Sequence record: OR204652.1
DNA: 40,444 bases
Source: Escherichia phage pO111
Strand: one strand, 5' to 3'
Shown piece by piece: positions 729-33,941 of the stretch. A program made the translations under genes and the position numbers. The notes under the pieces were generated by a model, which saw nothing but the letters and a program-made list of their open reading frames with translations, was not told the DNA's origin and did not search any database. The number at the start of each line of letters is the position of its first letter. Position 1 is the stretch's first letter.

Positions 729-1172
729 TCAATCACTTAGGTAATCCTCAATGACCCTCTTGACCCACGCCACAGAGAGCTTATGGTATCTCGCTATGGA
801 CGTTGCGGTCCAGCCTTTATGGTATCTTCGAATCACTATGGCCTTACGTTCCTCGCTAGGGTCTCTCTTAGTTGCATCACGTTTACCTGTGGCCTTAGTT
901 GCACGACCTTTTGAGATGCAGTCCTCTATGTTCTCCTTCTGAGTCCCTTCCTTAAGGTGCTCAGGGTTAACACATGAAGGATTATCACATAGGTGCATCA
1001 CAACCATTCCGTCAGCTATCGGTCTGCCTAGATGACAACTCAGGGAATACCTGTGGGCCATCCAATGGACTCCGTTCACACGAATGCGACCATAGCCAGT
1101 CTTCGTCTTACATCCCTTAAAGTTCCAGCAACCAGTCTCCTTATCGACAACATACTTCTTCTTGCTTATCAT
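729..1172 (-). CDS. HNH endonuclease with C-terminal helix-turn-helix (putative free-standing homing endonuclease)
   Basis: 147-aa ORF; motif HLCDNPSCVNPEHL (HNH_3-like) plus C-terminal HTH; ATG with AAGGAGGT Shine-Dalgarno; lies between terminase gene 19 and phiOR. Confidence 0.8.
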   Translation of the reverse strand: MISKKKYVVDKETGCWNFKGCKTKTGYGRIRVNGVHWMAHRYSLSCHLGRPIADGMVVMHLCDNPSCVNPEHLKEGTQKENIEDCISKGRATKATGKRDATKRDPSEERKAIVIRRYHKGWTATSIARYHKLSVAWVKRVIEDYLSD

Positions 1173-2979: not shown

Positions 2980-3429
2980 TTACTTGGTTTCCTGCTTACG
3001 TTGCAGTTCACGAATAGTATCCTGTAACGCACGAATCCACGCATCACCCTTCTGGGTCACTGCGATAATACGTTTAGCATCTCGGTCGTCAAGTTCGGCT
3101 CGACCATCAGGCTCGAATCCACACTTACCATCGGAGGTTCCGGTAGTCTTGATTCTGACGCGCAACCGCTTATTGTCGCTACGCAAATCAGAAATAATCC
3201 TATCAGTGCTCCCTTCCAGCGCGGCAAGGTCTGCTTGATACTTAGCCGATATCTCATTGATTGCTCTTTGAGTGCTCGCCGTAGCCTCAACTCTCTTAAC
3301 GTACTCATTCTGTACCTCCTGTTTCCACTTGGCGTCCATTGAGTCAGCCCCAAGTTGCCATCCCCATCCGAATAGCATCCCAGCGAGAACCCAAGGGACT
3401 GTTCTCTTAACGATTGCAAGTAATACCAT
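2980..3429 (-). CDS. 18.5: Rz-like i-spanin (gp18.5)
   Basis: ORF track 2980..3477 trimmed to the internal ATG (MVLLAIVKRTVPWVLAGMLFG...) that aligns with the T7 gp18.5 N-terminus. Confidence 0.85.
   Translation of the reverse strand: MVLLAIVKRTVPWVLAGMLFGWGWQLGADSMDAKWKQEVQNEYVKRVEATASTQRAINEISAKYQADLAALEGSTDRIISDLRSDNKRLRVRIKTTGTSDGKCGFEPDGRAELDDRDAKRIIAVTQKGDAWIRALQDTIRELQRKQETK
3057..3308 (-). CDS. 18.7: Rz1-like o-spanin lipoprotein (gp18.7), embedded in the +1 frame of Rz
   Basis: MSTLRELRLRRALKEQSMRY...ICVATISGCASES lipobox; 83 aa from the internal ATG of ORF 3057..3419. Confidence 0.85.
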   Translation of the reverse strand: MSTLRELRLRRALKEQSMRYRLSIKQTLPRWKGALIGLFLICVATISGCASESRLPEPPMVSVDSSLMVEPNLTTEMLNVLSQ

Positions 3430-3811
3430 AAGTTTCCTCCAACAATCTCGCGTGAGTTTCCCTAGCCCAAGAAACAACTTCCTCTAGATTAGTGGTAGGC
3501 GCATAAGTTTCCTTACGACCTCCCATGCGAATGTCACCATAGTAGACCATACAGCCTTTCCTCTTTGCGAATCTAGAGTATACACCCTTTGGTAGTTCCC
3601 TACTACTAATCGTGTTAGCCCTGTTAGCACCTCTAGGTACTGCCCTCAGGTTAGATAACGCATTATCCAGTGTGTCACCATTTATATGATCGATGACGTA
3701 CCCTTCTGGGATTGGACCATTGGCCTCTTCCCAAATCAGGCGGTGTACATTGTGTACCTTACCATTTATGGTTACTCGATAGTACCCTCCACTCAGGTAT
3801 TGACCTTCCAT
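3407..3811 (-). CDS. HNH endonuclease with AP2-like DNA-binding tail (putative homing endonuclease)
   Basis: 134-aa ORF; GYVIDHINGDTLDNALSNLRAV HNH motif; ATG with GGAGA Shine-Dalgarno; sits between gene 18 and Rz and overlaps the Rz start by 23 nt. Confidence 0.8.
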   Translation of the reverse strand: MEGQYLSGGYYRVTINGKVHNVHRLIWEEANGPIPEGYVIDHINGDTLDNALSNLRAVPRGANRANTISSRELPKGVYSRFAKRKGCMVYYGDIRMGGRKETYAPTTNLEEVVSWARETHARLLEETYGITCNR

Positions 3812-3873
3812 AATAATCTCTCCTATCTAAATGATATTCATAAGGGCCACTCATTAGAATGACCCTGAGTATA

Positions 3874-18729: not shown

Positions 18730-18752
18730 TCTCCCTATAGTGAGTCGTATTA
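18730..18752 (-). promoter_or_regulatory. T7-type phage RNAP promoter phi9
   Basis: Reverse complement TAATACGACTCACTATAGGGAGA. Confidence 0.9.
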
Positions 18753-20360
18753 AATGCCCGGCTGTAGACCTACGGAATCAGCGGCAGCAGCCATAGCCTC
18801 AGGTGAAGCTGTAGCCTGCGCAGCCATACCTTGACCAAGCGCAGCAGCACCACTATCCATACCCATTTGCATAGACTGTTGAGCCATCCTCTGTTGCTTC
18901 TGTTCTTCGGTAAGAAGGATACCAGAAGTGTCAATACCGATAGCGTTAGCAATGCGCAACTTAATCATTGCAAGGTTGATGTCAGGGTCGTCACGCATAG
19001 GAGCAAGAGCAGCCCACGCAGCGACACAACGCTCCAGCTTATCAAGGTCTTGTCCTCGACCGATTGCTTCCAGACCTGTACTAATGGTTGGCTCTACTGC
19101 TTCCTTAGGTAACTCAGGAATCTGTTGCGTGGCTTGTAGCTGCTTCAAGAGCACTCGTACCAGAGGCAATTGTAATTCTTGAGAAAGGATGGAGTAGACA
19201 CCACCTAAAGTATCTTCAAGTTCAGAAGCGACATACCGAATCTCTTCGGCTGTCACACGTTCACCTGTGCGCTGAACCGCAGAGTTCAACATAAAGGCAA
19301 ACGAAAGGCGAGCCTCAATAGCGTCACTGACAGCCTTGGCTACAGTAAAGTCTGCTTGCTTCTCCAGTTGGAGGAACGAGATGTCTTCTGGACGACCAGT
19401 AACGAAGTCACCAGTCTGAGCTTTGGTCAGTCGGCGTGGCTGGGTGATACCAGCAGGATTCACTAAGCCGATAACCTTAGAGCTAATCATGGACATCTTG
19501 ACGATAGCCTCTTGGAGATTCTCAAGGGACCGTAAGTCACCTAAGTATTCCTCAATGTACGAACGACCGTAGGATTCACCGTCAAGACGAACCATTCGAA
19601 TCGGGATGTATGGGCAAGCATCTTTAGGATATGCACCATCGGAGCCTTGTATCTCCATACCTTCAACCTCTTCGTAGCGGAGATATTCGTCTGACTCTTC
19701 GTCCAAGTAGATGTGAGTGTACACATCAATGGTCTCATCAGGTTTCTTCTCACCGCCTTGACCTTCTACAGCCTTACGGATGTCCTCAGGGAGAGCACCA
19801 AAAGCTATCTGGTCACGAGTCACCATTTGCAGAACGTTGCCGAATGCGTCTCGTTGGACCACATAAGAAGACAATCGGTACAGCTTCATGGGATTGTAGT
19901 TTGACCCTTCTGGTTCCGGTAGGTACAGTAGGACGTTACCCGCTACGACTAACTGCTTGAGAGCCTCAAAGAGAGTTACTCGGTAGCTGTTAGACTCAAT
20001 GTAGTTCATGATAATGCGCTCTACCATTGAGAGGCCCTCATCAACCTTAGCGAGTCCATCGGGGTCGCTCAGTAGTTGTTTTGCCTCGAACTCAGAGATG
20101 GTTAAGCGCATCCAAGTCTGCATGGGGAATAACGCCAGCATTAGTTTAGACGCTAGGTTATTCAGGCCACGGGCACCAACGGCTTGCCACGGAGTTGTGT
20201 AGTCTGTAGATGCGTTGTCGGAGTCCTTAGGGAATAAGGAGGGGATGGTATATTGAGCGCAATTCTGAGCGCGTGTCTCATAAGGAGCACGGTCGTTCTT
20301 TAAACGCTCATAGACGGACTTTGCGCCCTCCTCCGCAAGTCCTGTTCGTTTCTCAGCCAT
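18750..20360 (-). CDS. 8: Portal (head-to-tail connector) protein
   Basis: ORF track trimmed to MAEKRTGLAEEG (536 aa as in T7 gp8); its ATG overlaps the upstream HNH stop as TAATG. Confidence 0.93.
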   Translation of the reverse strand: MAEKRTGLAEEGAKSVYERLKNDRAPYETRAQNCAQYTIPSLFPKDSDNASTDYTTPWQAVGARGLNNLASKLMLALFPMQTWMRLTISEFEAKQLLSDPDGLAKVDEGLSMVERIIMNYIESNSYRVTLFEALKQLVVAGNVLLYLPEPEGSNYNPMKLYRLSSYVVQRDAFGNVLQMVTRDQIAFGALPEDIRKAVEGQGGEKKPDETIDVYTHIYLDEESDEYLRYEEVEGMEIQGSDGAYPKDACPYIPIRMVRLDGESYGRSYIEEYLGDLRSLENLQEAIVKMSMISSKVIGLVNPAGITQPRRLTKAQTGDFVTGRPEDISFLQLEKQADFTVAKAVSDAIEARLSFAFMLNSAVQRTGERVTAEEIRYVASELEDTLGGVYSILSQELQLPLVRVLLKQLQATQQIPELPKEAVEPTISTGLEAIGRGQDLDKLERCVAAWAALAPMRDDPDINLAMIKLRIANAIGIDTSGILLTEEQKQQRMAQQSMQMGMDSGAAALGQGMAAQATASPEAMAAAADSVGLQPGI

Positions 20361-20761
20361 TAAATATGTCTCCATGTCTTACCACATCGAGCGTCACTAA
20401 TGGTTCTCCTATGGATGCCATACATTTCTGACAACTCAGTGTTGGTTAAATTTGATGCACGAATCTCACGCACAATGGCCTCAGTGAGCTTGGCACCGTA
20501 ATGCTCTTCACCTCTGGATGCGTTCGCTCTACCTTTAGTTACACAGTCCATACGGTTATCACGCTGAGTGCCAGCTACAAGATGTTCAGGGTTGATACAC
20601 AGAGGATTGTCACAGGTATGCATTATGACCATACCAGTCGGTATCTCACCCTTTGATTTGATGTATGCTACCCTGTGAGCCAGCTGTGTCTTACCTTTGT
20701 AACCAACGAGACCGTACCCTCCTTTAGTCGTACAACCAGTATGAAGGATACAATCTGTCAT
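20360..20761 (-). CDS. HNH endonuclease with C-terminal helix-turn-helix (gene 7.7 position)
   Basis: 133 aa; HTCDNPLCINPEHL motif; same architecture as the ORFs at 729..1172 and 30008..30436. Confidence 0.8.
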   Translation of the reverse strand: MTDCILHTGCTTKGGYGLVGYKGKTQLAHRVAYIKSKGEIPTGMVIMHTCDNPLCINPEHLVAGTQRDNRMDCVTKGRANASRGEEHYGAKLTEAIVREIRASNLTNTELSEMYGIHRRTISDARCGKTWRHI

Positions 20762-21063
20762 ATATTTATACCCCCACCGGAGCTACGAGCTACACTTAAT
20801 GACTTCTTACCACCAGCACGGGCCTTCTTACGTCCGCTTTCGGTCTGTGCTTCGTCCTCAGTGGAAACCTCTTTCTCAGGAACGTCAACAATCTGTGCAG
20901 CAGGAGTAGCAGCGGCAGCTTGTGGAACTTCCACTACCTGTGCCTCACCAGCACCACCAGCCAGACCGCTGGCAACCTGTTTAACCGGACGGGTCACTTC
21001 CTTAGCAACTTTCTTAACGGCTTTCTTAACGGACTTTGTTACTTTCTTAACTACCTTACCCAT
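20758..21063 (-). CDS. 7.3: Tail/host-range protein gp7.3
   Basis: 101 aa, lysine-rich N-terminus MGKVVKKVTKSVKK, matches recalled T7 gp7.3. Confidence 0.9.
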   Translation of the reverse strand: MGKVVKKVTKSVKKAVKKVAKEVTRPVKQVASGLAGGAGEAQVVEVPQAAAATPAAQIVDVPEKEVSTEDEAQTESGRKKARAGGKKSLSVARSSGGGINI

Positions 21064-22047: not shown

Positions 22048-22070
22048 TCTCCCTATAGTGAGTCGTATTA
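22048..22070 (-). promoter_or_regulatory. T7-type phage RNAP promoter phi6.5
   Basis: Reverse complement TAATACGACTCACTATAGGGAGA. Confidence 0.9.
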
Positions 22071-23448: not shown

Positions 23449-23750
23449 TAGAACACCTCCCGTACAGTTGCTGGGGAGAATCGCATCAATTTACGTTCAG
23501 ACTCACTCAGGTCCTTGTAGTTATCCTTAACGAAGGAACGAAGTCCTTGCTTAATCAGGAACGTAGCGAGGCCATCGGGACCATGCGTCAACGCTTGGAC
23601 CAGTAACTCTTTCTTAAAGTCGTCAACTTGTTCACCAGCGGCTACTGCCTTGGCAACTCGCATAACGCAGTCTCGCAGGTTTTGTTCACCTTCACTAGTT
23701 ACCACAGCGGTAACGTCGAAGGACACTTTAAATTTCTTGGTCATAGCCAT
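23448..23750 (-). CDS. 5.5: gp5.5 (H-NS binding protein family)
   Basis: 100 aa, matches recalled T7 gp5.5. Confidence 0.9.
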   Translation of the reverse strand: MAMTKKFKVSFDVTAVVTSEGEQNLRDCVMRVAKAVAAGEQVDDFKKELLVQALTHGPDGLATFLIKQGLRSFVKDNYKDLSESERKLMRFSPATVREVF

Positions 23751-23769
23751 AATGATTTCTCCTATAGAA

Positions 23770-23925: not shown

Positions 23926-24526
23926 CTTTCTGTATTCTCCTATTACTAGGAGTGTCGGACTATATCATCAGCCTTTGAGTTGACTGTCTGGCGCTTCGGG
24001 TAACGAGGGAATCTCACCCTCGGCCCTACTCCTTTCGGATAGTCTCTACGCCTTCCACTCTCTAATCCACTTACAAGCGGCAGAGAACGTTACACCAAAC
24101 TTCTCACCTAAGTGTGCTCCTGTACATCCAGTCTCCAACCAGTATTCCTTCGCGGACTCTTTACGGTCAGCGTAGCGTTCCCTGTTTGTCTTGACTGTAT
24201 GCTCAGAACCTTCTAGTAACTGGAGGTGCTCTACGTTACAGCACGCCCTGTTCCTACACTTGTGGTCTACTTCATACCCTTCTGGTATATCTCCGTAGTG
24301 TTCCTTCCAGACTGTCCTGTGATACATCTCTAGGACACCGTTCGTCTTCTTTCGGAAATAACCATCAGTATTAAGTTTGTGTGACGTAGGGATGATACAA
24401 CCACTCGCTGTGGTCGCAAGGATTAACTTCTTGCCTCTCATATATCCTCCCTATGGCTTGGCTCGGTATTGCCCTAGAAGGGTTTCACCGAGTTCACCAG
24501 ATTTAATGTGCACAATGAGATAGTTT
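23926..24526 (-). mobile_element. Group I self-splicing intron in DNA polymerase gene 5, carrying an HNH homing-endonuclease ORF
   Basis: 601 nt between the gp5 exons; exon 1 ends in U; GUGCAC near the intron 5' end can pair with exon end GUGCAU (U-G wobble); R-like AGAGACUA and S-like GAUAUAGUCC elements; CUCCUA-GUAA-UAGGAG hairpin; intron ends in G. Confidence 0.8.
24046..24441 (-). CDS. Intron-encoded HNH homing endonuclease
   Basis: 131 aa ORF inside the intron; YEVDHKCRNRACCNVEHL HNH-type motif; ATG with GGGAGGA Shine-Dalgarno; stop codon overlaps the R-like element. Confidence 0.82.
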   Translation of the reverse strand: MRGKKLILATTASGCIIPTSHKLNTDGYFRKKTNGVLEMYHRTVWKEHYGDIPEGYEVDHKCRNRACCNVEHLQLLEGSEHTVKTNRERYADRKESAKEYWLETGCTGAHLGEKFGVTFSAACKWIREWKA

Positions 24527-26485
24527 ATGCACCCATGCCATGTACGCAAAGTCCCCATCCCAGCCATGCTTCAAGCCTTTCTCTACGAGCATCTCTTCGG
24601 TCTTGATAATCCACAGTTTGCAGATGAGAGCACCAGCAGATTGTAATAGGGTATTCAAGGCAGCGTGAGGACTACGGACGTGTACCTTACGACCATCCAG
24701 ACCTTTAATCCAGCGGCGTTTCCACTTGACTCGCTGTTCGCCAGCTACCCACTGAGAGGACTCAACAAGTGTCTGTTGGATAGACTCACGGAGTGCTGCA
24801 ATCGCTGGGGTGTTCTCAAGGAATTTCTTCTTGAGTTCCTTACCGCGCTCTTTACCAGCACCAACAATCTGTCCAATCTTCTCATCACCAGCACCATAGA
24901 GGAACCCATAGATAAACGTCTTAGCGTTATCACGGGTAGGCAATTCGGCAGCTATCTGGTTCTTAGTGTGGATGTCGCCATTGAGAATCTCGTGAGCGTA
25001 CTCACCGTTGTCAAAGCGAGCCATGAAGTGGGCCAAGCATCGCAACTCCAGACCGGAGGCGTCTATACCAGCCTGAACCCAAGGCTTACCTGTAAGTCCA
25101 TCTAGGTGATGTTCAGCGCCAAAAGCAGCGCGGCACTGCTCACCATAAGGAGAACGGACACCGGGTATCTGTGCGAGGTTAGGGAAAGCGTGAGTAGCGC
25201 GCCCAGTAACAGCGCCGTTGGGATTAACAGAACCATGAATTTTACCATCCTCAGCAACGTAACGAAGCCACGCCTTGTCTCCCTCAGCTGACTGTCCGAT
25301 TCTCTTCTGAATCATCAAGTATTCTTTAATGAGGTCGATTGCAGCTTGCTTCTCAGGGTCATCTACACGTACTCCTTCGAGTACCTCATCGTCCACCACA
25401 GGCGCACCCTTATCGGTGTACTTCGTGGGGACCCACCCAGCCTCTTGAAGTTTCTTCTGAATGTGGTCACGGGACGAAGGGTTAAACACTACGTGCTCTA
25501 CCGGAGTATATGGGGCACCAGCAACGTACTCGCGGGTATCCAGTTCGCAAGGCTCACGGCCTTCTCGTTGTGCCTTGTTCTTAGGCTTCTTAAAGATACC
25601 ACCAACTTTAGGTGTCTTAATGCGAGGGTATTTAGGCAGTGGTTTACCTGTCCGAGGATGGCAGAACATCTCAGTGCCACCTTTAGGCTGATACCACGAG
25701 CCGAACGTTTCGGTCAGCTTACGCAGCAACTCTGAGCGGCGAGCAGCCAACTCTACGTACAACTCCTCGATTGCTTTCGTGTCAAACGGGAATCCATTAC
25801 GCTCTTGCTTAGCGAGTAGCCATGCAGCGCGATGTTCAACATCAACGGCCTCAAGGGATTCTGACCAGAACGTAGTGTAGCCTACGTCCGTAAAGTCAAT
25901 CTCAGGAGGGAAGTAATGTTTATCAGAGAGTAGCTTCTCAAGGAGAGCCTTAGTGACCACAACGTCCTGAACGTTATAGGCCATCATCTCTTCGTTGAAG
26001 TTCCACCACTCCATTCCGTCAACGTATTCTTCACCTTGCTCTTCAAGCATACGCTTAAAGTCATCCTTGTATTCACCCTTCATCTCACCTAAGCGATAGC
26101 CCCACGCCTCCAAAGCGTGAGACCCAAAGCGTTTACCGGGCAACTTACCGGAACGCAGAAGACCCATATCGGTGTCTTTAAGGTTAGAGTGAATCAATCG
26201 TGACAGCACAAGGGTGTCGATACAGTTCTCACGGGGAAGGTGGAACTCACGGTTCAATTGTAGCTTTGCCAGTTTGGTCAATGCGGGAACGTCATACTTG
26301 TGACCGTTGTGGAACACGATAAGACCGCCTCGTGCAACCTCGGCTTCCAGCGCATCCAGATACGCACCGAAGTCACTCGGACGGTAGCTTACGTACTCAG
26401 CGGTGGAGTAGTCATAGATAACCCCGCAGTGGAACTTAGTGACGCTCTCTAAGAGGGCGTTAGCTTCGATGTCAGAAACGATCAT
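24527..26485 (-). CDS. 5: DNA polymerase gene 5, exon 1 (653 codons)
   Basis: Near-identical to recalled T7 gp5 residues 1-653; the unspliced ORF runs 7 extra codons (KLSHCAH*) into the intron. Confidence 0.9.
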
Positions 26486-27325: not shown

Positions 27326-29075
<1,750 letters not shown>

Positions 29076-29107
29076 TCAATGATGCGAACAAAGGGAAACC
29101 GTTGTGG

Positions 29108-29587: not shown

Positions 29588-30036
29588 TATTTCTTCTCCT
29601 TCTTAATAATCATTTTGTCCCAAGGAATCTCCTTACTAGGTTCTTTAAGCCATTCCGCAGGTATCAACTTGTCTGCGAACTTAATGCTATGTTTTTCTGC
29701 CCACTCACCGTAGCTGGTGGGAGACCCTTTGTATAACTTGGTGCGACTTGAAGAGAACACGATGCGTATATCGAGGGATGGGAACTGTTCGCGAATAAGT
29801 AAATGTTTCTTACGGTCTTCCGCTTCAAATAGTCCCTTGAACTCTACTATAATACCGTTTGGTAAAAGCGCATCTGGTGTGTATTTATGATTACTCGCTG
29901 GGATTACGTAGGGGATTGAGAAAGACTCATACTTAGCCTTGACCCCCATGCTCTCCAAGCGAGCCATATTCTTCTCTTCAAGTCCACTTCGGTAGTTTCC
30001 TACACGTTTAATTCCTCTTGCTGCGTAACCTGCCAT
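29587..30036 (-). CDS. 3: Endonuclease I (Holliday junction resolvase)
   Basis: 149 aa, matches recalled T7 gp3. Confidence 0.93.
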   Translation of the reverse strand: MAGYAARGIKRVGNYRSGLEEKNMARLESMGVKAKYESFSIPYVIPASNHKYTPDALLPNGIIVEFKGLFEAEDRKKHLLIREQFPSLDIRIVFSSSRTKLYKGSPTSYGEWAEKHSIKFADKLIPAEWLKEPSKEIPWDKMIIKKEKK

Positions 30037-30436
30037 AAGTCCTCCTGTTTCGTATCATACTGATAGTCGCAGGAGAAACCCCAAAGTCATCAGCCAATTC
30101 GTAGCCTTTCTTTGTGGAAGACATTATGGTTAGTACATCATCATCACTAAGTTTATGTCCTTTACGTCCCCTCCCCTTGGAGGCCATATCTGCTAGGTTC
30201 TCAGCTTGAGTCCCTAGAGATAAGTGTTCAGGGTTGCAGCACTTACGGTTATCACAAGAATGCATTACAACATCGTTAGGTGCTGCCCCAGCCATGACCC
30301 TGTGAATGTAAACGGGGCGACCAGTTTCTGGGTTGCGAATCTGACCGTACCCATTTGTTTTCACAGAGCCTTGCCACTCCCAGCATCCAGAAGACGTAAC
30401 CTCAATTCGCTTGAGGATTTTCTCCTGCAAGCCCAT
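30008..30436 (-). CDS. HNH endonuclease with C-terminal helix-turn-helix (gene 2.8 position)
   Basis: 142 aa; HSCDNRKCCNPEHL motif; overlaps the gene 3 start by 29 nt. Confidence 0.8.
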   Translation of the reverse strand: MGLQEKILKRIEVTSSGCWEWQGSVKTNGYGQIRNPETGRPVYIHRVMAGAAPNDVVMHSCDNRKCCNPEHLSLGTQAENLADMASKGRGRKGHKLSDDDVLTIMSSTKKGYELADDFGVSPATISMIRNRRTYGRLRSKRN

Positions 30437-32497: not shown

Positions 32498-32995
32498 TTA
32501 TTGTAGCTCAGCTAGTAGTTTGTCGCGGGTCGCTACAGCCTCGTTAAGTGACTTGTGATATGAGACATATCGTCTGCCGAACTTCCTAACGGAGACGGTG
32601 TATAGGTTTCTATCATGTCTCTTATTGATGTGCTTAAGCCCCAGCTTGTTGGTGCAGAATGCTCCTTTGTTCTGATTGTTCTCAGCGCTTGTGACCACTC
32701 TGAGATTCTCTATGAGGTTATTCTGCTTATTTCTATCGATATGGTCTATCTGTAAACCGTCTGGTATAGGGCCGTTAGCAAGTTCCCACACTACTCTGTG
32801 AACCATTAAGTAGTGCGCCTTTCCTTCCACCCTGACACATAGAGTCCAATACCCAGTCTTCTTTAGATAGCCAACGGGCTTCCCATTAATACGCGAGAGG
32901 CCACTAGGAGACTCCCTGTCAATCTTAAATCTTTTCGCTACGATTTCCCTCAACTCCACGGAAGCAGGTGAAGGAAGGATGTCTGAGACTTCCAC
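32498..32995 (-). CDS. HNH endonuclease (free-standing, putative homing endonuclease) at the gene 1.4 position
   Basis: 165 aa; LQIDHIDRNKQNNLIENLRVVTSAENNQNKG HNH motif; GTG start with GGAGG Shine-Dalgarno; overlaps the last 71 nt of the ligase gene. Confidence 0.8.
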   Translation of the reverse strand: MEVSDILPSPASVELREIVAKRFKIDRESPSGLSRINGKPVGYLKKTGYWTLCVRVEGKAHYLMVHRVVWELANGPIPDGLQIDHIDRNKQNNLIENLRVVTSAENNQNKGAFCTNKLGLKHINKRHDRNLYTVSVRKFGRRYVSYHKSLNEAVATRDKLLAELQ

Positions 32996-33941
32996 TTTCT
33001 GTTTCCTCCATATAATTTACTTGGCAAGACCATCCGTTATAGTAGTCCTCCCCGTGCTCCTTAACGTTGGCGGTAAATTCGTCCATTAAGGCGCGAGAGA
33101 TATTGTTAGCGTCTACAATACGCCCTGTCTCAAGAAGCACCGTGAACCCTATTACCTTACCTTCGTTGGCTAGACCTTTCGTACCCCAGTTTACACCTTG
33201 GATGATACCGTCTGCTTCGTTCTCTGGCTTGAGTTTCCACCAGCCGGACTTCTTACCGCGCTTGTAGATGCACATCGGGTCTTTCACAATGAGACCCTCA
33301 TGCCCTTCTTCACGCTTCTTCTCGTACAGTTGCTGTAGTTCTACCATGTCGTAAATCTCGTAAGACTCAGCCGCTTGCCATTCGATTTCAGGGAAGTATT
33401 CCTGTAGCAGAGGCAGCATGTTCTTAACGTGTTCCTGCATGAGCAGCGTCATGACATCACAGTCTTCTCCAGACTCTACGATGTGCAGCGGTAGGATAGC
33501 ATACAGTTTGACACTCAGACGTTTGGTGTCCAACGCGAACTCAACCTTGGACCCCTTGAGTGGTGGCACACCGCCAACGTCGAACTCAAAGTTCTTCTTG
33601 TTGAGCCACTTGGTGCGCAGAAGACCGGAGCCAGTGTTGAAGTCTACACCTTTGACCATCAGTTCACCATCGAGCATGAAGCCGTCAGGGTAGAAGCATC
33701 GGTCATCACGAAGGAGGCGTTGCCAGCGAGAGTCAAAACCGTTCAAATGCTCAAGTGCCGGAATCGTTTTAGAAACACGAGAGAGCCAGCAACTGTTAGC
33801 AGTGTTGTCTACGCAGATGTTCCCACGTACACCATCGTACTTACAATCGACAATTAGGTATCCCGCATTGTCTAAGGCCTTCTTCACAGCGGATTCAACA
33901 AAAGACACAGCTTTAAATGGGATGGTCTTAATGTTCATCAT
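32925..33941 (-). CDS. 1.3: ATP-dependent DNA ligase
   Basis: 338 aa with the adenylation motif KYDGVRG; N-terminus MMNIKT as in T7 gp1.3; shorter than the 359 aa recalled for T7. Confidence 0.93.
   Translation of the reverse strand: MMNIKTIPFKAVSFVESAVKKALDNAGYLIVDCKYDGVRGNICVDNTANSCWLSRVSKTIPALEHLNGFDSRWQRLLRDDRCFYPDGFMLDGELMVKGVDFNTGSGLLRTKWLNKKNFEFDVGGVPPLKGSKVEFALDTKRLSVKLYAILPLHIVESGEDCDVMTLLMQEHVKNMLPLLQEYFPEIEWQAAESYEIYDMVELQQLYEKKREEGHEGLIVKDPMCIYKRGKKSGWWKLKPENEADGIIQGVNWGTKGLANEGKVIGFTVLLETGRIVDANNISRALMDEFTANVKEHGEDYYNGWSCQVNYMEETESGSLRHPSFTCFRGVEGNRSEKI

What the first reader, a model, noticed from the sequence alone, without database searches (positions are those of the whole stretch)
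20360..20761. Paralogous HNH-HTH endonuclease at the gene 7.7 position (one of six HNH genes in the genome)
This 133-aa ORF (HTCDNPLCINPEHL) sits between gp7.3 and the portal gene, with stop and start overlaps on both sides. Counting the intron ORF, the genome carries six HNH-family endonuclease genes (729, 3407, 20360, 24046, 30008, 32498), which is high for a 40-kb T7-like phage. I cannot confirm from memory whether T7 gp7.7 is this same protein.
Basis: inference. Interest (0 to 1): 0.45.

Follow-up and report, generated by a model that had tools for sequence, protein, structure and literature searches.

The report
Mobile HNH nuclease gene beside portal
This is an intact but ordinary copy of a selfish "homing" nuclease gene wedged between gene 7.3 and the portal gene of a T7-like phage; most relatives have nothing in that slot, and T7 itself carries a different version there.

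Summary
The 133-aa ORF at 20360-20761 (minus strand) is real. It has an N-terminal HNH/His-Me nuclease domain and a C-terminal helix-turn-helix, and it overlaps gene 7.3 (ATGA) and the portal gene (TAATG). [quoted passage not shown]

T7 gp7.7 is the closest T7 protein, but only at 47% identity. The flanking DNA is about 93% identical to T7, and that similarity breaks exactly at the ORF. The slot is empty in 74 of the 79 related loci that reached it. Elsewhere it holds at least four deeply diverged alleles. The window's allele recurs at the same junction in five genera.

The gene is under purifying selection (dN/dS 0.06-0.23). Genomes that carry it share a distinct haplotype over the first ~126 nt of the portal gene. 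One genome keeps only the gene's last codons, which looks like a deletion scar.

This is the signature of a free-standing homing endonuclease gene, I-HmuI-like in fold. Six HNH genes is the highest count among eight genomes sampled (the others have 1-4), but similar expansions are published. The family and near-identical proteins are already in databases. Interest is low.

The parts
20360..20761 (-). gp7.7-family HNH-HTH endonuclease gene (133 aa, stop codon included); the free-standing homing endonuclease gene
   Evidence: ORF. Pfam HNH_3 51.7 bits. PHROG HNH families, E down to 7e-31. 98.5% identical to a Shigella phage ESh6 protein.
20528..20761 (-). Nuclease domain, residues 1-78. Pfam HNH_3 covers residues 27-70 (20552-20683). 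Invariant H48, C50, C55, H60, N69, D72; C4 nearly invariant.
20387..20482 (-). C-terminal three-helix helix-turn-helix DNA-binding module (residues 94-125)
20758..20775 (-). 5' junction: the last codons of gene 7.3 are recoded synonymously (GGG GGT ATA AAT ATA TGA), with an ATGA stop/start overlap. The intergenic Shine-Dalgarno sequence found in empty-slot genomes is absent.
   Evidence: Alignment with empty-slot and T7-type genomes. The same junction occurs in five genera.
20360..20382 (-). Conserved 3' tail of the gene (codons for KTWRHI plus the stop). It carries the GGAG ribosome-binding site for the portal gene and forms the TAATG overlap.
   Evidence: Similarity to T7 resumes at 20382. 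The tail is conserved in all allele types. It survives alone as a scar in locus L042.
20235..20360 (-). First 126 nt of portal gene 8. This haplotype is shared by all genomes that carry a 7.7 gene and differs from empty-slot genomes. It is the candidate target, immunity or co-conversion tract.
   Evidence: 13 fixed differences lie in nt 1-126 and none in nt 127-1500. Between-group distance is 0.17-0.22 against 0-0.11 within groups, and the excess decays by about nt 270-420.
20758..21063 (-). Gene 7.3 (101 aa), the upstream neighbour
   Evidence: ORF. Synteny with T7.
18750..20360 (-). Gene 8, portal / head-tail connector (536 aa from the T7-equivalent start), the downstream neighbour
   Evidence: ORF. 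92.9% DNA identity to T7 gene 8.
22048..22070 (-). T7-type promoter (phi6.5 equivalent), the nearest one upstream. The next is at 18730-18752 (phi9 equivalent), so the gene has no promoter of its own.
   Evidence: Exact matches to the T7 class III promoter consensus.
729..1172 (-). HNH-HTH ORF after the large terminase gene (gene 19.4 slot)
   Evidence: HNH_3 35.2 bits. 70% identical to 13a gp19.4 and 97% to the ESh6 ORF.
3407..3811 (-). HNH ORF of the 3.8-like subfamily, between gene 18 and gene 18.5
   Evidence: HNH_3 68.7 bits. phrog_99. It lies in a break in T7 similarity at 3399-3829.
24046..24441 (-). HNH ORF inside the DNA polymerase intron
   Evidence: HNH_3 61.3 bits. 98% identical to the ORF inside the split gene 5 of phage 13a.
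23936..24536 (-). Group I intron interrupting DNA polymerase gene 5
   Evidence: RF00028, full-length match, 38.4 bits (below gathering score 50), E 4.8e-8. A 601-bp insertion relative to T7.
30008..30436 (-). HNH-HTH ORF in the gene 2.8 slot
   Evidence: HNH_3 29.8 bits. 58% identical to T7 gp2.8.
32498..32995 (-). HNH ORF of the 3.8-like subfamily, just after the ligase gene 1.3
   Evidence: HNH_3 76 bits. phrog_99.

Best explanation
The ORF is a free-standing homing endonuclease gene of the T7 gp7.7 family. It is a selfish, dispensable gene encoding a small two-domain enzyme: an N-terminal His-Me (HNH) nuclease, probably braced by a zinc site (C4, C50, C55, H60), and a C-terminal helix-turn-helix that reads DNA sequence. 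It has no promoter of its own. It is transcribed late from the phi6.5-type promoter and is translationally coupled to gene 7.3 upstream and to the portal gene downstream. Its own 3' end supplies the portal gene's ribosome-binding site. The following steps are inferred, not shown. In a mixed infection with a relative whose 7.3/8 junction is empty, the enzyme nicks or cuts that genome at or just inside the start of the portal gene. Repair copies the gene, together with about 130-270 nt of the adjacent portal-gene sequence, from the carrier genome. The carrier is protected because the insertion and the synonymous changes beside it alter the site. Over time the gene spreads between lineages, is swapped for other alleles and is lost again.
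For: 2. Sharp cassette boundaries. DNA similarity to T7 is 92.6-92.9% on both sides and vanishes exactly over 20383-20761.
3. Sporadic presence. Only 5 of 80 Studiervirinae loci hold a gene in this slot, 74 are empty, and one locus does not reach the slot. Among the 14 closest loci, 4 are occupied. In empty genomes the 7.3 stop, Shine-Dalgarno sequence and gene 8 ATG are contiguous.
4. Several allele lineages occupy the one slot. These are the W type, the T7 and C5 types (72% identical to each other), the 13a type and the L044 type, which are 44-47% identical to the window's protein.
5. Cross-lineage spread. The W-type allele sits at the identical junction in Teseptimavirus, Teetrevirus, Berlinvirus, Helsettvirus and Kayfunavirus.
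6. Flank signature. VAC1 and an empty-slot genome are 99.7% identical in gene 8. Of their 17 substitutions, 7 lie within about 30 nt of the insert, and all 7 are synonymous. In Teseptimavirus, all 13 fixed differences between carrier and empty genomes lie in gene 8 nt 1-126. There are none upstream.
7. The gene is kept functional: dN/dS is 0.06-0.23.
8. Loss. Locus L042 keeps only the last codons (RKTWRNN*) in a 100-nt spacer.
9. Dispensability. T7 gp7.7 has been deleted seamlessly without loss of viability (PMC12153263, PMC9825161).
Against: No cleavage activity, target site or homing event has been shown for this protein, nor, in the papers I could search, for T7 gp7.7. The flank signature is not universal. 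The pairs fPS-9/L082 and RN5i1/L047 show no differences in the first ~57 nt of gene 8, so the target may span the insertion point itself and not lie inside gene 8. The carrier-linked haplotype in Teseptimavirus comes from about 20 related genomes and could partly reflect shared ancestry. The slot survey used one IMG/VR sample of 80 loci that includes near-duplicate genomes.
Confidence: 0.8

Rival explanations
1. The nuclease is kept mainly because it benefits the carrier phage as a competition weapon. It cuts the genomes of co-infecting relatives that lack it or carry another allele, excluding their markers. Gene spread is then a side effect and not the reason the gene persists.
For: The gene is under purifying selection. 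Several divergent alleles persist in one slot, which could reflect different specificities. A genome carrying six such genes suggests accumulation is tolerated or favoured.
Against: This shares every mechanistic step with homing and cannot be told apart from sequence alone. The slot is empty in most relatives, a deletion scar exists, and T7 tolerates deletion (PMC12153263). All three argue against a strong general benefit.
Confidence: 0.12
2. It is a domesticated HNH accessory factor of the packaging or portal machinery, like HK97 gp74, which stimulates terminase cutting. Its place beside the portal gene would then be functional.
For: The gene is adjacent to and translationally coupled with the portal gene. 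HNH proteins next to packaging genes are known helpers of terminase in other phages (Kala et al. 2014, as cited in PMC8861465).
Against: It is absent from 74 of 79 related loci, whose portal proteins are 77-98% identical. T7 gp7.7 is dispensable (PMC12153263, PMC9825161). Its closest structural relative is a homing enzyme with an HTH domain. The same family occupies non-packaging slots such as 2.8.
Confidence: 0.03
3. The protein has lost catalysis and acts only as a sequence-specific DNA-binding protein (a regulator), or the gene is a decaying relic.
For: HNH homing enzymes are often found in decay. The HTH domain could act alone. Neither point rests on a tool result here; both are general knowledge of homing endonuclease genes.
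Against: The ORF is full length. All residues invariant across the family are present. dN/dS is far below 1. The model is well folded.
Confidence: 0.05

Closest known systems
Bacteriophage T7 gp7.7 (annotated HNH endonuclease, non-essential)
   Same: Same slot between 7.3 and 8. Similar length (130 vs 133 aa). Same HNH_3 domain. Same N-terminal M-x-D-C-I start and the same KTWRHI end, with the TAATG overlap onto gene 8. It is the best T7 match over the full length.
   Different: Only 47% identical, although the flanking DNA is about 93% identical. The 5' junction differs. The T7 gene starts after the old gene 8 Shine-Dalgarno sequence, 13 nt past the 7.3 stop. This allele overlaps a recoded 7.3 stop and has lost that spacer. 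T7 gp7.7 is about as close to T7 gp2.8 (49%) as it is to this protein.
W-type 7.7 alleles in Shigella phages ESh6 and ESh2, Escherichia phage Tarrare, Klebsiella phage VAC1, Salmonella phage RN5i1, Yersinia phage fPS-9 and Escherichia phage ST31
   Same: Same lineage (98.5, 97, 80, 70, 67, 65 and 58% identity), same length and the same ATGA and TAATG-type junctions. Tarrare and VAC1 annotate it as an HNH homing endonuclease.
   Different: None in kind. The host genomes belong to five genera, and their gene 8 leaders differ.
I-HmuI (PDB 1U3E), intron-encoded HNH nicking homing endonuclease of Bacillus phage SPO1
   Different: I-HmuI is encoded in an intron, is longer (174 aa) and nicks one strand. 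This gene is free-standing, and its chemistry (nick or double-strand cut) is unknown. This subfamily also carries a Cys/His cluster reminiscent of I-PpoI (Pfam zf-His_Me_endon 27.2 bits, cut-off 27).
Free-standing homing endonuclease genes of phage T4 (seg and mob genes) and the HNH gene expansion reported in the T3-like phage Sxt1
   Same: These are intergenic selfish nuclease genes, sporadic among close relatives and linked to co-conversion of flanking markers. Several occur per genome (PMC10448857; PMC11680406 reports four extra HNH genes in Sxt1).
   Different: The T4 seg genes are GIY-YIG enzymes. Homing has been shown experimentally for several T4 genes but not for this family (my own knowledge for the T4 genes).

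Membership tests
HNH / His-Me finger nucleases (Pfam HNH_3, PF13392) | Sequence match to the family profile above the curated cut-off | tested here: met
   51.7 bits against a cut-off of 24.8, residues 27-70. PHROG HNH families, E 7e-31.
HNH / His-Me finger nucleases (Pfam HNH_3, PF13392) | Beta-beta-alpha metal fold with the catalytic His and the metal-binding Asn retained | tested here: met
T7 gp7.7 family | Location between gene 7.3 and portal gene 8 | tested here: met
   Synteny with T7 and 13a.
T7 gp7.7 family | Closer in sequence to 7.7-slot proteins than to HNH proteins of other slots | tested here: met
   The nine best matches in the comparison set are all 7.7-slot proteins (44-80% identity). 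T7 gp2.8 follows at 40%. The margin over gp2.8 is small for the T7, 13a and C5 alleles.
Free-standing homing endonuclease gene | Presence/absence polymorphism at one precise site among closely related genomes | tested here: met
   5 of 80 loci occupied. Empty sites are contiguous and conserved.
Free-standing homing endonuclease gene | Flanking-marker linkage or co-conversion next to the gene | tested here: met
   13 fixed differences in gene 8 nt 1-126 and none beyond or upstream. In the VAC1/L024 pair, substitutions cluster at both junctions. Not seen in two other pairs.
Free-standing homing endonuclease gene | Site-specific cleavage of the allele that lacks the gene, and over-transmission in mixed infection | not testable with these tools
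   Needs biochemistry and phage crosses. No published test for this family was found.
I-HmuI-like intron-encoded nicking endonucleases | Encoded within a self-splicing intron | tested here: not met
   The gene lies between two coding genes and shares stop/start overlaps with both. Rfam finds no intron here. The sister ORF at 24046 is intron-encoded.
HK97 gp74-type packaging HNH proteins | Conserved and required partner of the terminase/portal module | tested here: not met
   Absent from 74 of 79 related loci. T7 gp7.7 is deletable (PMC12153263, PMC9825161).

The most novel reading that the evidence does not exclude
The 7.3/8 junction is a contested homing site. At least four deeply diverged HNH lineages replace one another there while sharing one cleavage-immune portal-gene leader and one 3' tail that doubles as the portal gene's ribosome-binding site. 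If the alleles differ in specificity, they could attack each other's carriers as well as empty genomes. That would make this slot a compact natural system for studying competition between homing endonuclease genes, and for mapping how a 130-aa HNH-HTH enzyme changes its target.
Probability: 0.25. Interest if true: 0.35.

Novelty: already known. Interest (0 to 1): 0.15.

Why it matters
It matters little beyond annotation. The result shows that 'gene 7.7' is an optional selfish cassette and not a core T7 gene. It should therefore be left out of phylogenies and core-genome sets, and the first ~130-270 nt of the portal gene next to it may carry transferred sequence. The slot is already used as a safe insertion site in engineered T7 (PMC12153263). 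The natural junctions show what has to be preserved there, namely a ribosome-binding site for gene 8. The family is biochemically untested, so its small HNH-HTH enzymes could be a source of new nicking or cutting specificities. That is a generic prospect for any homing endonuclease.

Tried and rejected
- A sequence search of the PDB with the protein gave only an insignificant HTH hit (E 0.93). The fold comparison was needed to reach I-HmuI.
- Rfam at gathering thresholds found nothing in the whole window. The DNA polymerase intron appeared only with the E-value threshold.
- Literature searches for gp7.7 function returned only genome-engineering papers showing dispensability. I found no biochemical or homing study.
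- I considered that the ORF is the vertically inherited T7 gp7.7 ortholog. I rejected this because protein identity is 47% inside about 93% identical flanks, with breakpoints at the ORF ends.
- I considered that the six HNH genes arose by duplication within this genome. I rejected this because intragenomic identities are at most 48% and four of the six have closer relatives elsewhere.
- I considered a packaging-helper role because of the portal adjacency. I rejected it on the distribution.
- The idea that the target always lies in the gene 8 leader is weakened by two carrier/empty pairs with identical leaders.

Full report
**What the window is.** The 40,444-bp window is a complete T7-like (Teseptimavirus) genome given as the reverse complement. 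All genes are on the minus strand. There are 173-bp terminal repeats, and the genome is collinear with T7 at about 80-93% DNA identity. It carries 12 T7-type promoters, all on the minus strand. No record in the phage collection matches it closely throughout. The best records give about 91-93% identity over 85-95% of the stretches tested.

**The observation.** ORF 20360-20761 (minus strand, 133 aa) exists as described and contains HTCDNPLCINPEHL.
- Its ATG overlaps the TGA of gene 7.3 (ATGA, 20758-20761).
- Its TAA overlaps the T7-equivalent ATG of portal gene 8 (TAATG, 20358-20362).
- Pfam HNH_3 scores 51.7 bits against a cut-off of 24.8. The C-terminal HTH hits are weak.
- A tblastn scan finds exactly six HNH loci in the window.

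**Relation to T7 and to the other HNH genes.** T7 gp7.7 is the best T7 match: 47% identity over all 133 residues, E 6e-39. T7 gp2.8 gives 40%. Within the window, the ORF at 729 gives 48% over 85 aa and the ORF at 30008 gives 35% over 124 aa.
- T7 gp5.3 is unrelated. It is a PD-(D/E)XK nuclease.
- The six window genes fall into two subfamilies. The HNH-HTH type comprises 729, 20360, 24046 and 30008. The gp3.8-like type comprises 3407 and 32498.
- Four of the six have a closer relative in another phage than within this genome. The ORF at 729 is 97% identical to an ESh6 ORF and 70% to 13a gp19.4. The ORF at 24046 is 98% identical to the 13a intron ORF. The ORF at 30008 is 58% identical to T7 gp2.8. 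The ORF at 20360 is 98.5% identical to the ESh6 protein.
- For 3407 and 32498 I found nothing closer than 47% in the small comparison set.
- These genes are therefore family members acquired separately, not duplicates made in this genome.

**The slot is a variable cassette.** DNA similarity to T7 runs at 92.6% up to window position 20762. It resumes at 92.9% from 20382. It is lost exactly over the ORF, except for the ORF's last 22 nt.

Close relatives show three states:
- this allele (ESh2, ESh6);
- a T7-type allele (T7, C5, YpsP-G);
- an empty slot (NC-A, ESh1, WW2, Salmonella phage C2, PDP351P2). In these, the 7.3 stop, the spacer TCAGGAGGTGACAC and the gene 8 ATG are contiguous.

In 80 IMG/VR loci retrieved with the portal protein, only five hold a gene in the slot, 74 are empty, and one does not reach the slot. 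Among the 14 closest loci, four are occupied.

The occupied slots hold at least four deeply diverged lineages: the W type, the T7 and C5 types (72% identical to each other), the 13a type and the L044 type. They are 44-47% identical to the window's protein. All begin M-x-[D/E/A/N]-C-[I/V], and nearly all end in KTWRHI or a one-residue variant.

The W type occurs with the same ATGA and TAATG-type junctions in five genera:
- Teseptimavirus: Tarrare, 80%;
- Teetrevirus: VAC1, 70%;
- Berlinvirus: RN5i1, 67%;
- Helsettvirus: fPS-9, 65%;
- Kayfunavirus: ST31, 58%.

**Junction anatomy.**
- T7- and C5-type genes sit exactly between the old gene 8 Shine-Dalgarno spacer and the gene 8 ATG, so they use that ribosome-binding site.
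- W- and 13a-type genes overlap a synonymously recoded end of 7.3 (GGC ATC AAC ATT TAA becomes GGT ATA AAT ATA TGA) and lack the spacer.
- In every type, the last ~22 nt (ACATGGAGRCAYATYTAATG) supply a GGAG for gene 8.
- In IMG/VR locus L042, a 100-nt spacer with no HNH gene still ends in ...CGTAAGACATGGAGGAATAATTAATG. This reads RKTWRNN* in frame and looks like a deletion scar that kept the portal gene's ribosome-binding site.

**Flank signature.**
- VAC1 and an empty-slot genome (L024) are 99.7% identical in gene 8. They still differ by four synonymous changes in the last 15 nt of 7.3 and three in the first 27 nt of gene 8. That is 7 of the 17 substitutions in 1.2 kb.
- In Teseptimavirus I compared eight carriers, covering all allele types, with ten empty genomes. 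All 13 fixed differences lie in gene 8 nt 1-126, and none lie in nt 127-1500.
- Between-group distance there is 0.17-0.22, against 0-0.11 within groups. The excess decays by nt 270-420.
- Upstream there are no fixed differences and no excess divergence.
- Two other carrier/empty pairs (fPS-9/L082 and RN5i1/L047) have identical gene 8 leaders. The signature is therefore not universal, and the target may span the insertion point itself.

**The protein.**
- H48, C50, C55, H60, L61, G64, N69 and D72 are invariant in 38 homologues. C4, Y16, H29, R30, D51, P53, P58, R78 and G84 are nearly invariant.
- The AlphaFold model is confident (pLDDT 91.4). It shows a beta-beta-alpha core and three C-terminal helices.
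- dN/dS against ESh6, ESh2, L015 and VAC1 is 0.06-0.23.

**Expression.** The nearest promoters are the phi6.5 equivalent (22048-22070) and the phi9 equivalent (18730-18752). The gene is therefore part of the late 6.5-8 transcript and is translationally coupled on both sides. The coupling is inferred from the overlaps.

**Interpretation.** The following observations together are the standard signature of a free-standing homing endonuclease gene:
- sharp cassette boundaries;
- sporadic presence;
- several alleles in one slot;
- spread across genera;
- a downstream-biased linked haplotype;
- purifying selection;
- a deletion scar;
- published dispensability of T7 gp7.7 (PMC12153263, PMC9825161).

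Cleavage, target site and homing itself are inferred, not shown. A packaging-helper role like that of HK97 gp74 is contradicted by the distribution. A competition benefit to the carrier phage cannot be separated from selfish spread using sequence alone.

**Is six high?** HNH loci found with the same query set were:

| Genome | HNH loci |
|---|---|
| Window | 6 |
| 13a | 4 |
| T7 | 3 |
| ESh2 | 3 |
| ESh6 | 3 |
| Tarrare | 3 |
| Bas104 | 2 |
| WW2 | 1 |

. The window is the richest of the eight, but the sample is small. The T3-like phage Sxt1 is reported to carry four HNH genes that are absent from T3 and T7 (PMC11680406).

Relative to T7, this genome:
- lacks the 3.8 and 5.3 genes;
- has divergent alleles in the 2.8 and 7.7 slots;
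- has extra HNH genes after the ligase gene, between genes 18 and 18.5, after gene 19, and in a DNA polymerase intron.

**Novelty.** Near-identical proteins are already deposited: ESh6 at 98.5%, plus a metagenomic cluster. Tarrare and VAC1 annotate the same lineage as an HNH homing endonuclease. T7 gp7.7 is annotated as an HNH endonuclease. The finding is correct but ordinary.

Noticed in passing
window 23936-24536 (-), ORF 24046-24441: DNA polymerase gene 5 is split by a 601-bp group I intron carrying an HNH ORF. Rfam RF00028 matches the full model but scores below the gathering cut-off (38.4 vs 50 bits, E 4.8e-8), so a default scan misses it. The ORF is 98% identical to the one inside the joined gene 5 of phage 13a, and Bas104 has the same arrangement. 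Introns of this kind in T7-like phages PhiI and W31 were described in 2004 (cited in PMC3428280).
   Followed up: partly
locus L042 (IMGVR_UViG_3300034358_000001), about 1895-1995: The 100-nt spacer between 7.3 and gene 8 has no HNH gene but ends with the conserved last codons of a 7.7 gene (RKTWRNN*) and its GGAG. It looks like a deletion scar that preserved the portal gene's ribosome-binding site.
   Followed up: partly
window 20235-20360 (-): The first ~126 nt of the portal gene form a haplotype shared by every genome carrying a 7.7 gene, whatever the allele type, and distinct from empty-slot genomes. Beyond about nt 270-420 the two groups are no more different than genomes within a group.
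   Followed up: yes
window 32498-32995 (-) and 32925-33941 (-): Read from its first GTG, the HNH ORF after the ligase gene overlaps the ligase ORF by 71 nt. Its true start is probably further downstream and was not determined. The ligase ORF as listed (338 aa) is shorter than that of T7 (359 aa).
   Followed up: no
window 29046-29081 and 23478-23768: The T7 gene 3.8 (HNH) and gene 5.3 (PD-(D/E)XK nuclease) slots are empty here. The set of nuclease cassettes differs from T7 at almost every slot, although the backbone is about 90% identical.
   Followed up: partly
window 18750-20375 (-): The mechanical ORF for the portal gene begins at an in-frame ATG 15 nt upstream of the T7-equivalent start (20360). 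The upstream ATG lies inside the 7.7 coding sequence and is probably not used.
   Followed up: no
whole window: This is a complete genome with 173-bp terminal repeats. The best public phage records reach only about 91-93% identity over 85-95% of the stretches tested, so it is probably a species-level new Teseptimavirus.
   Followed up: partly
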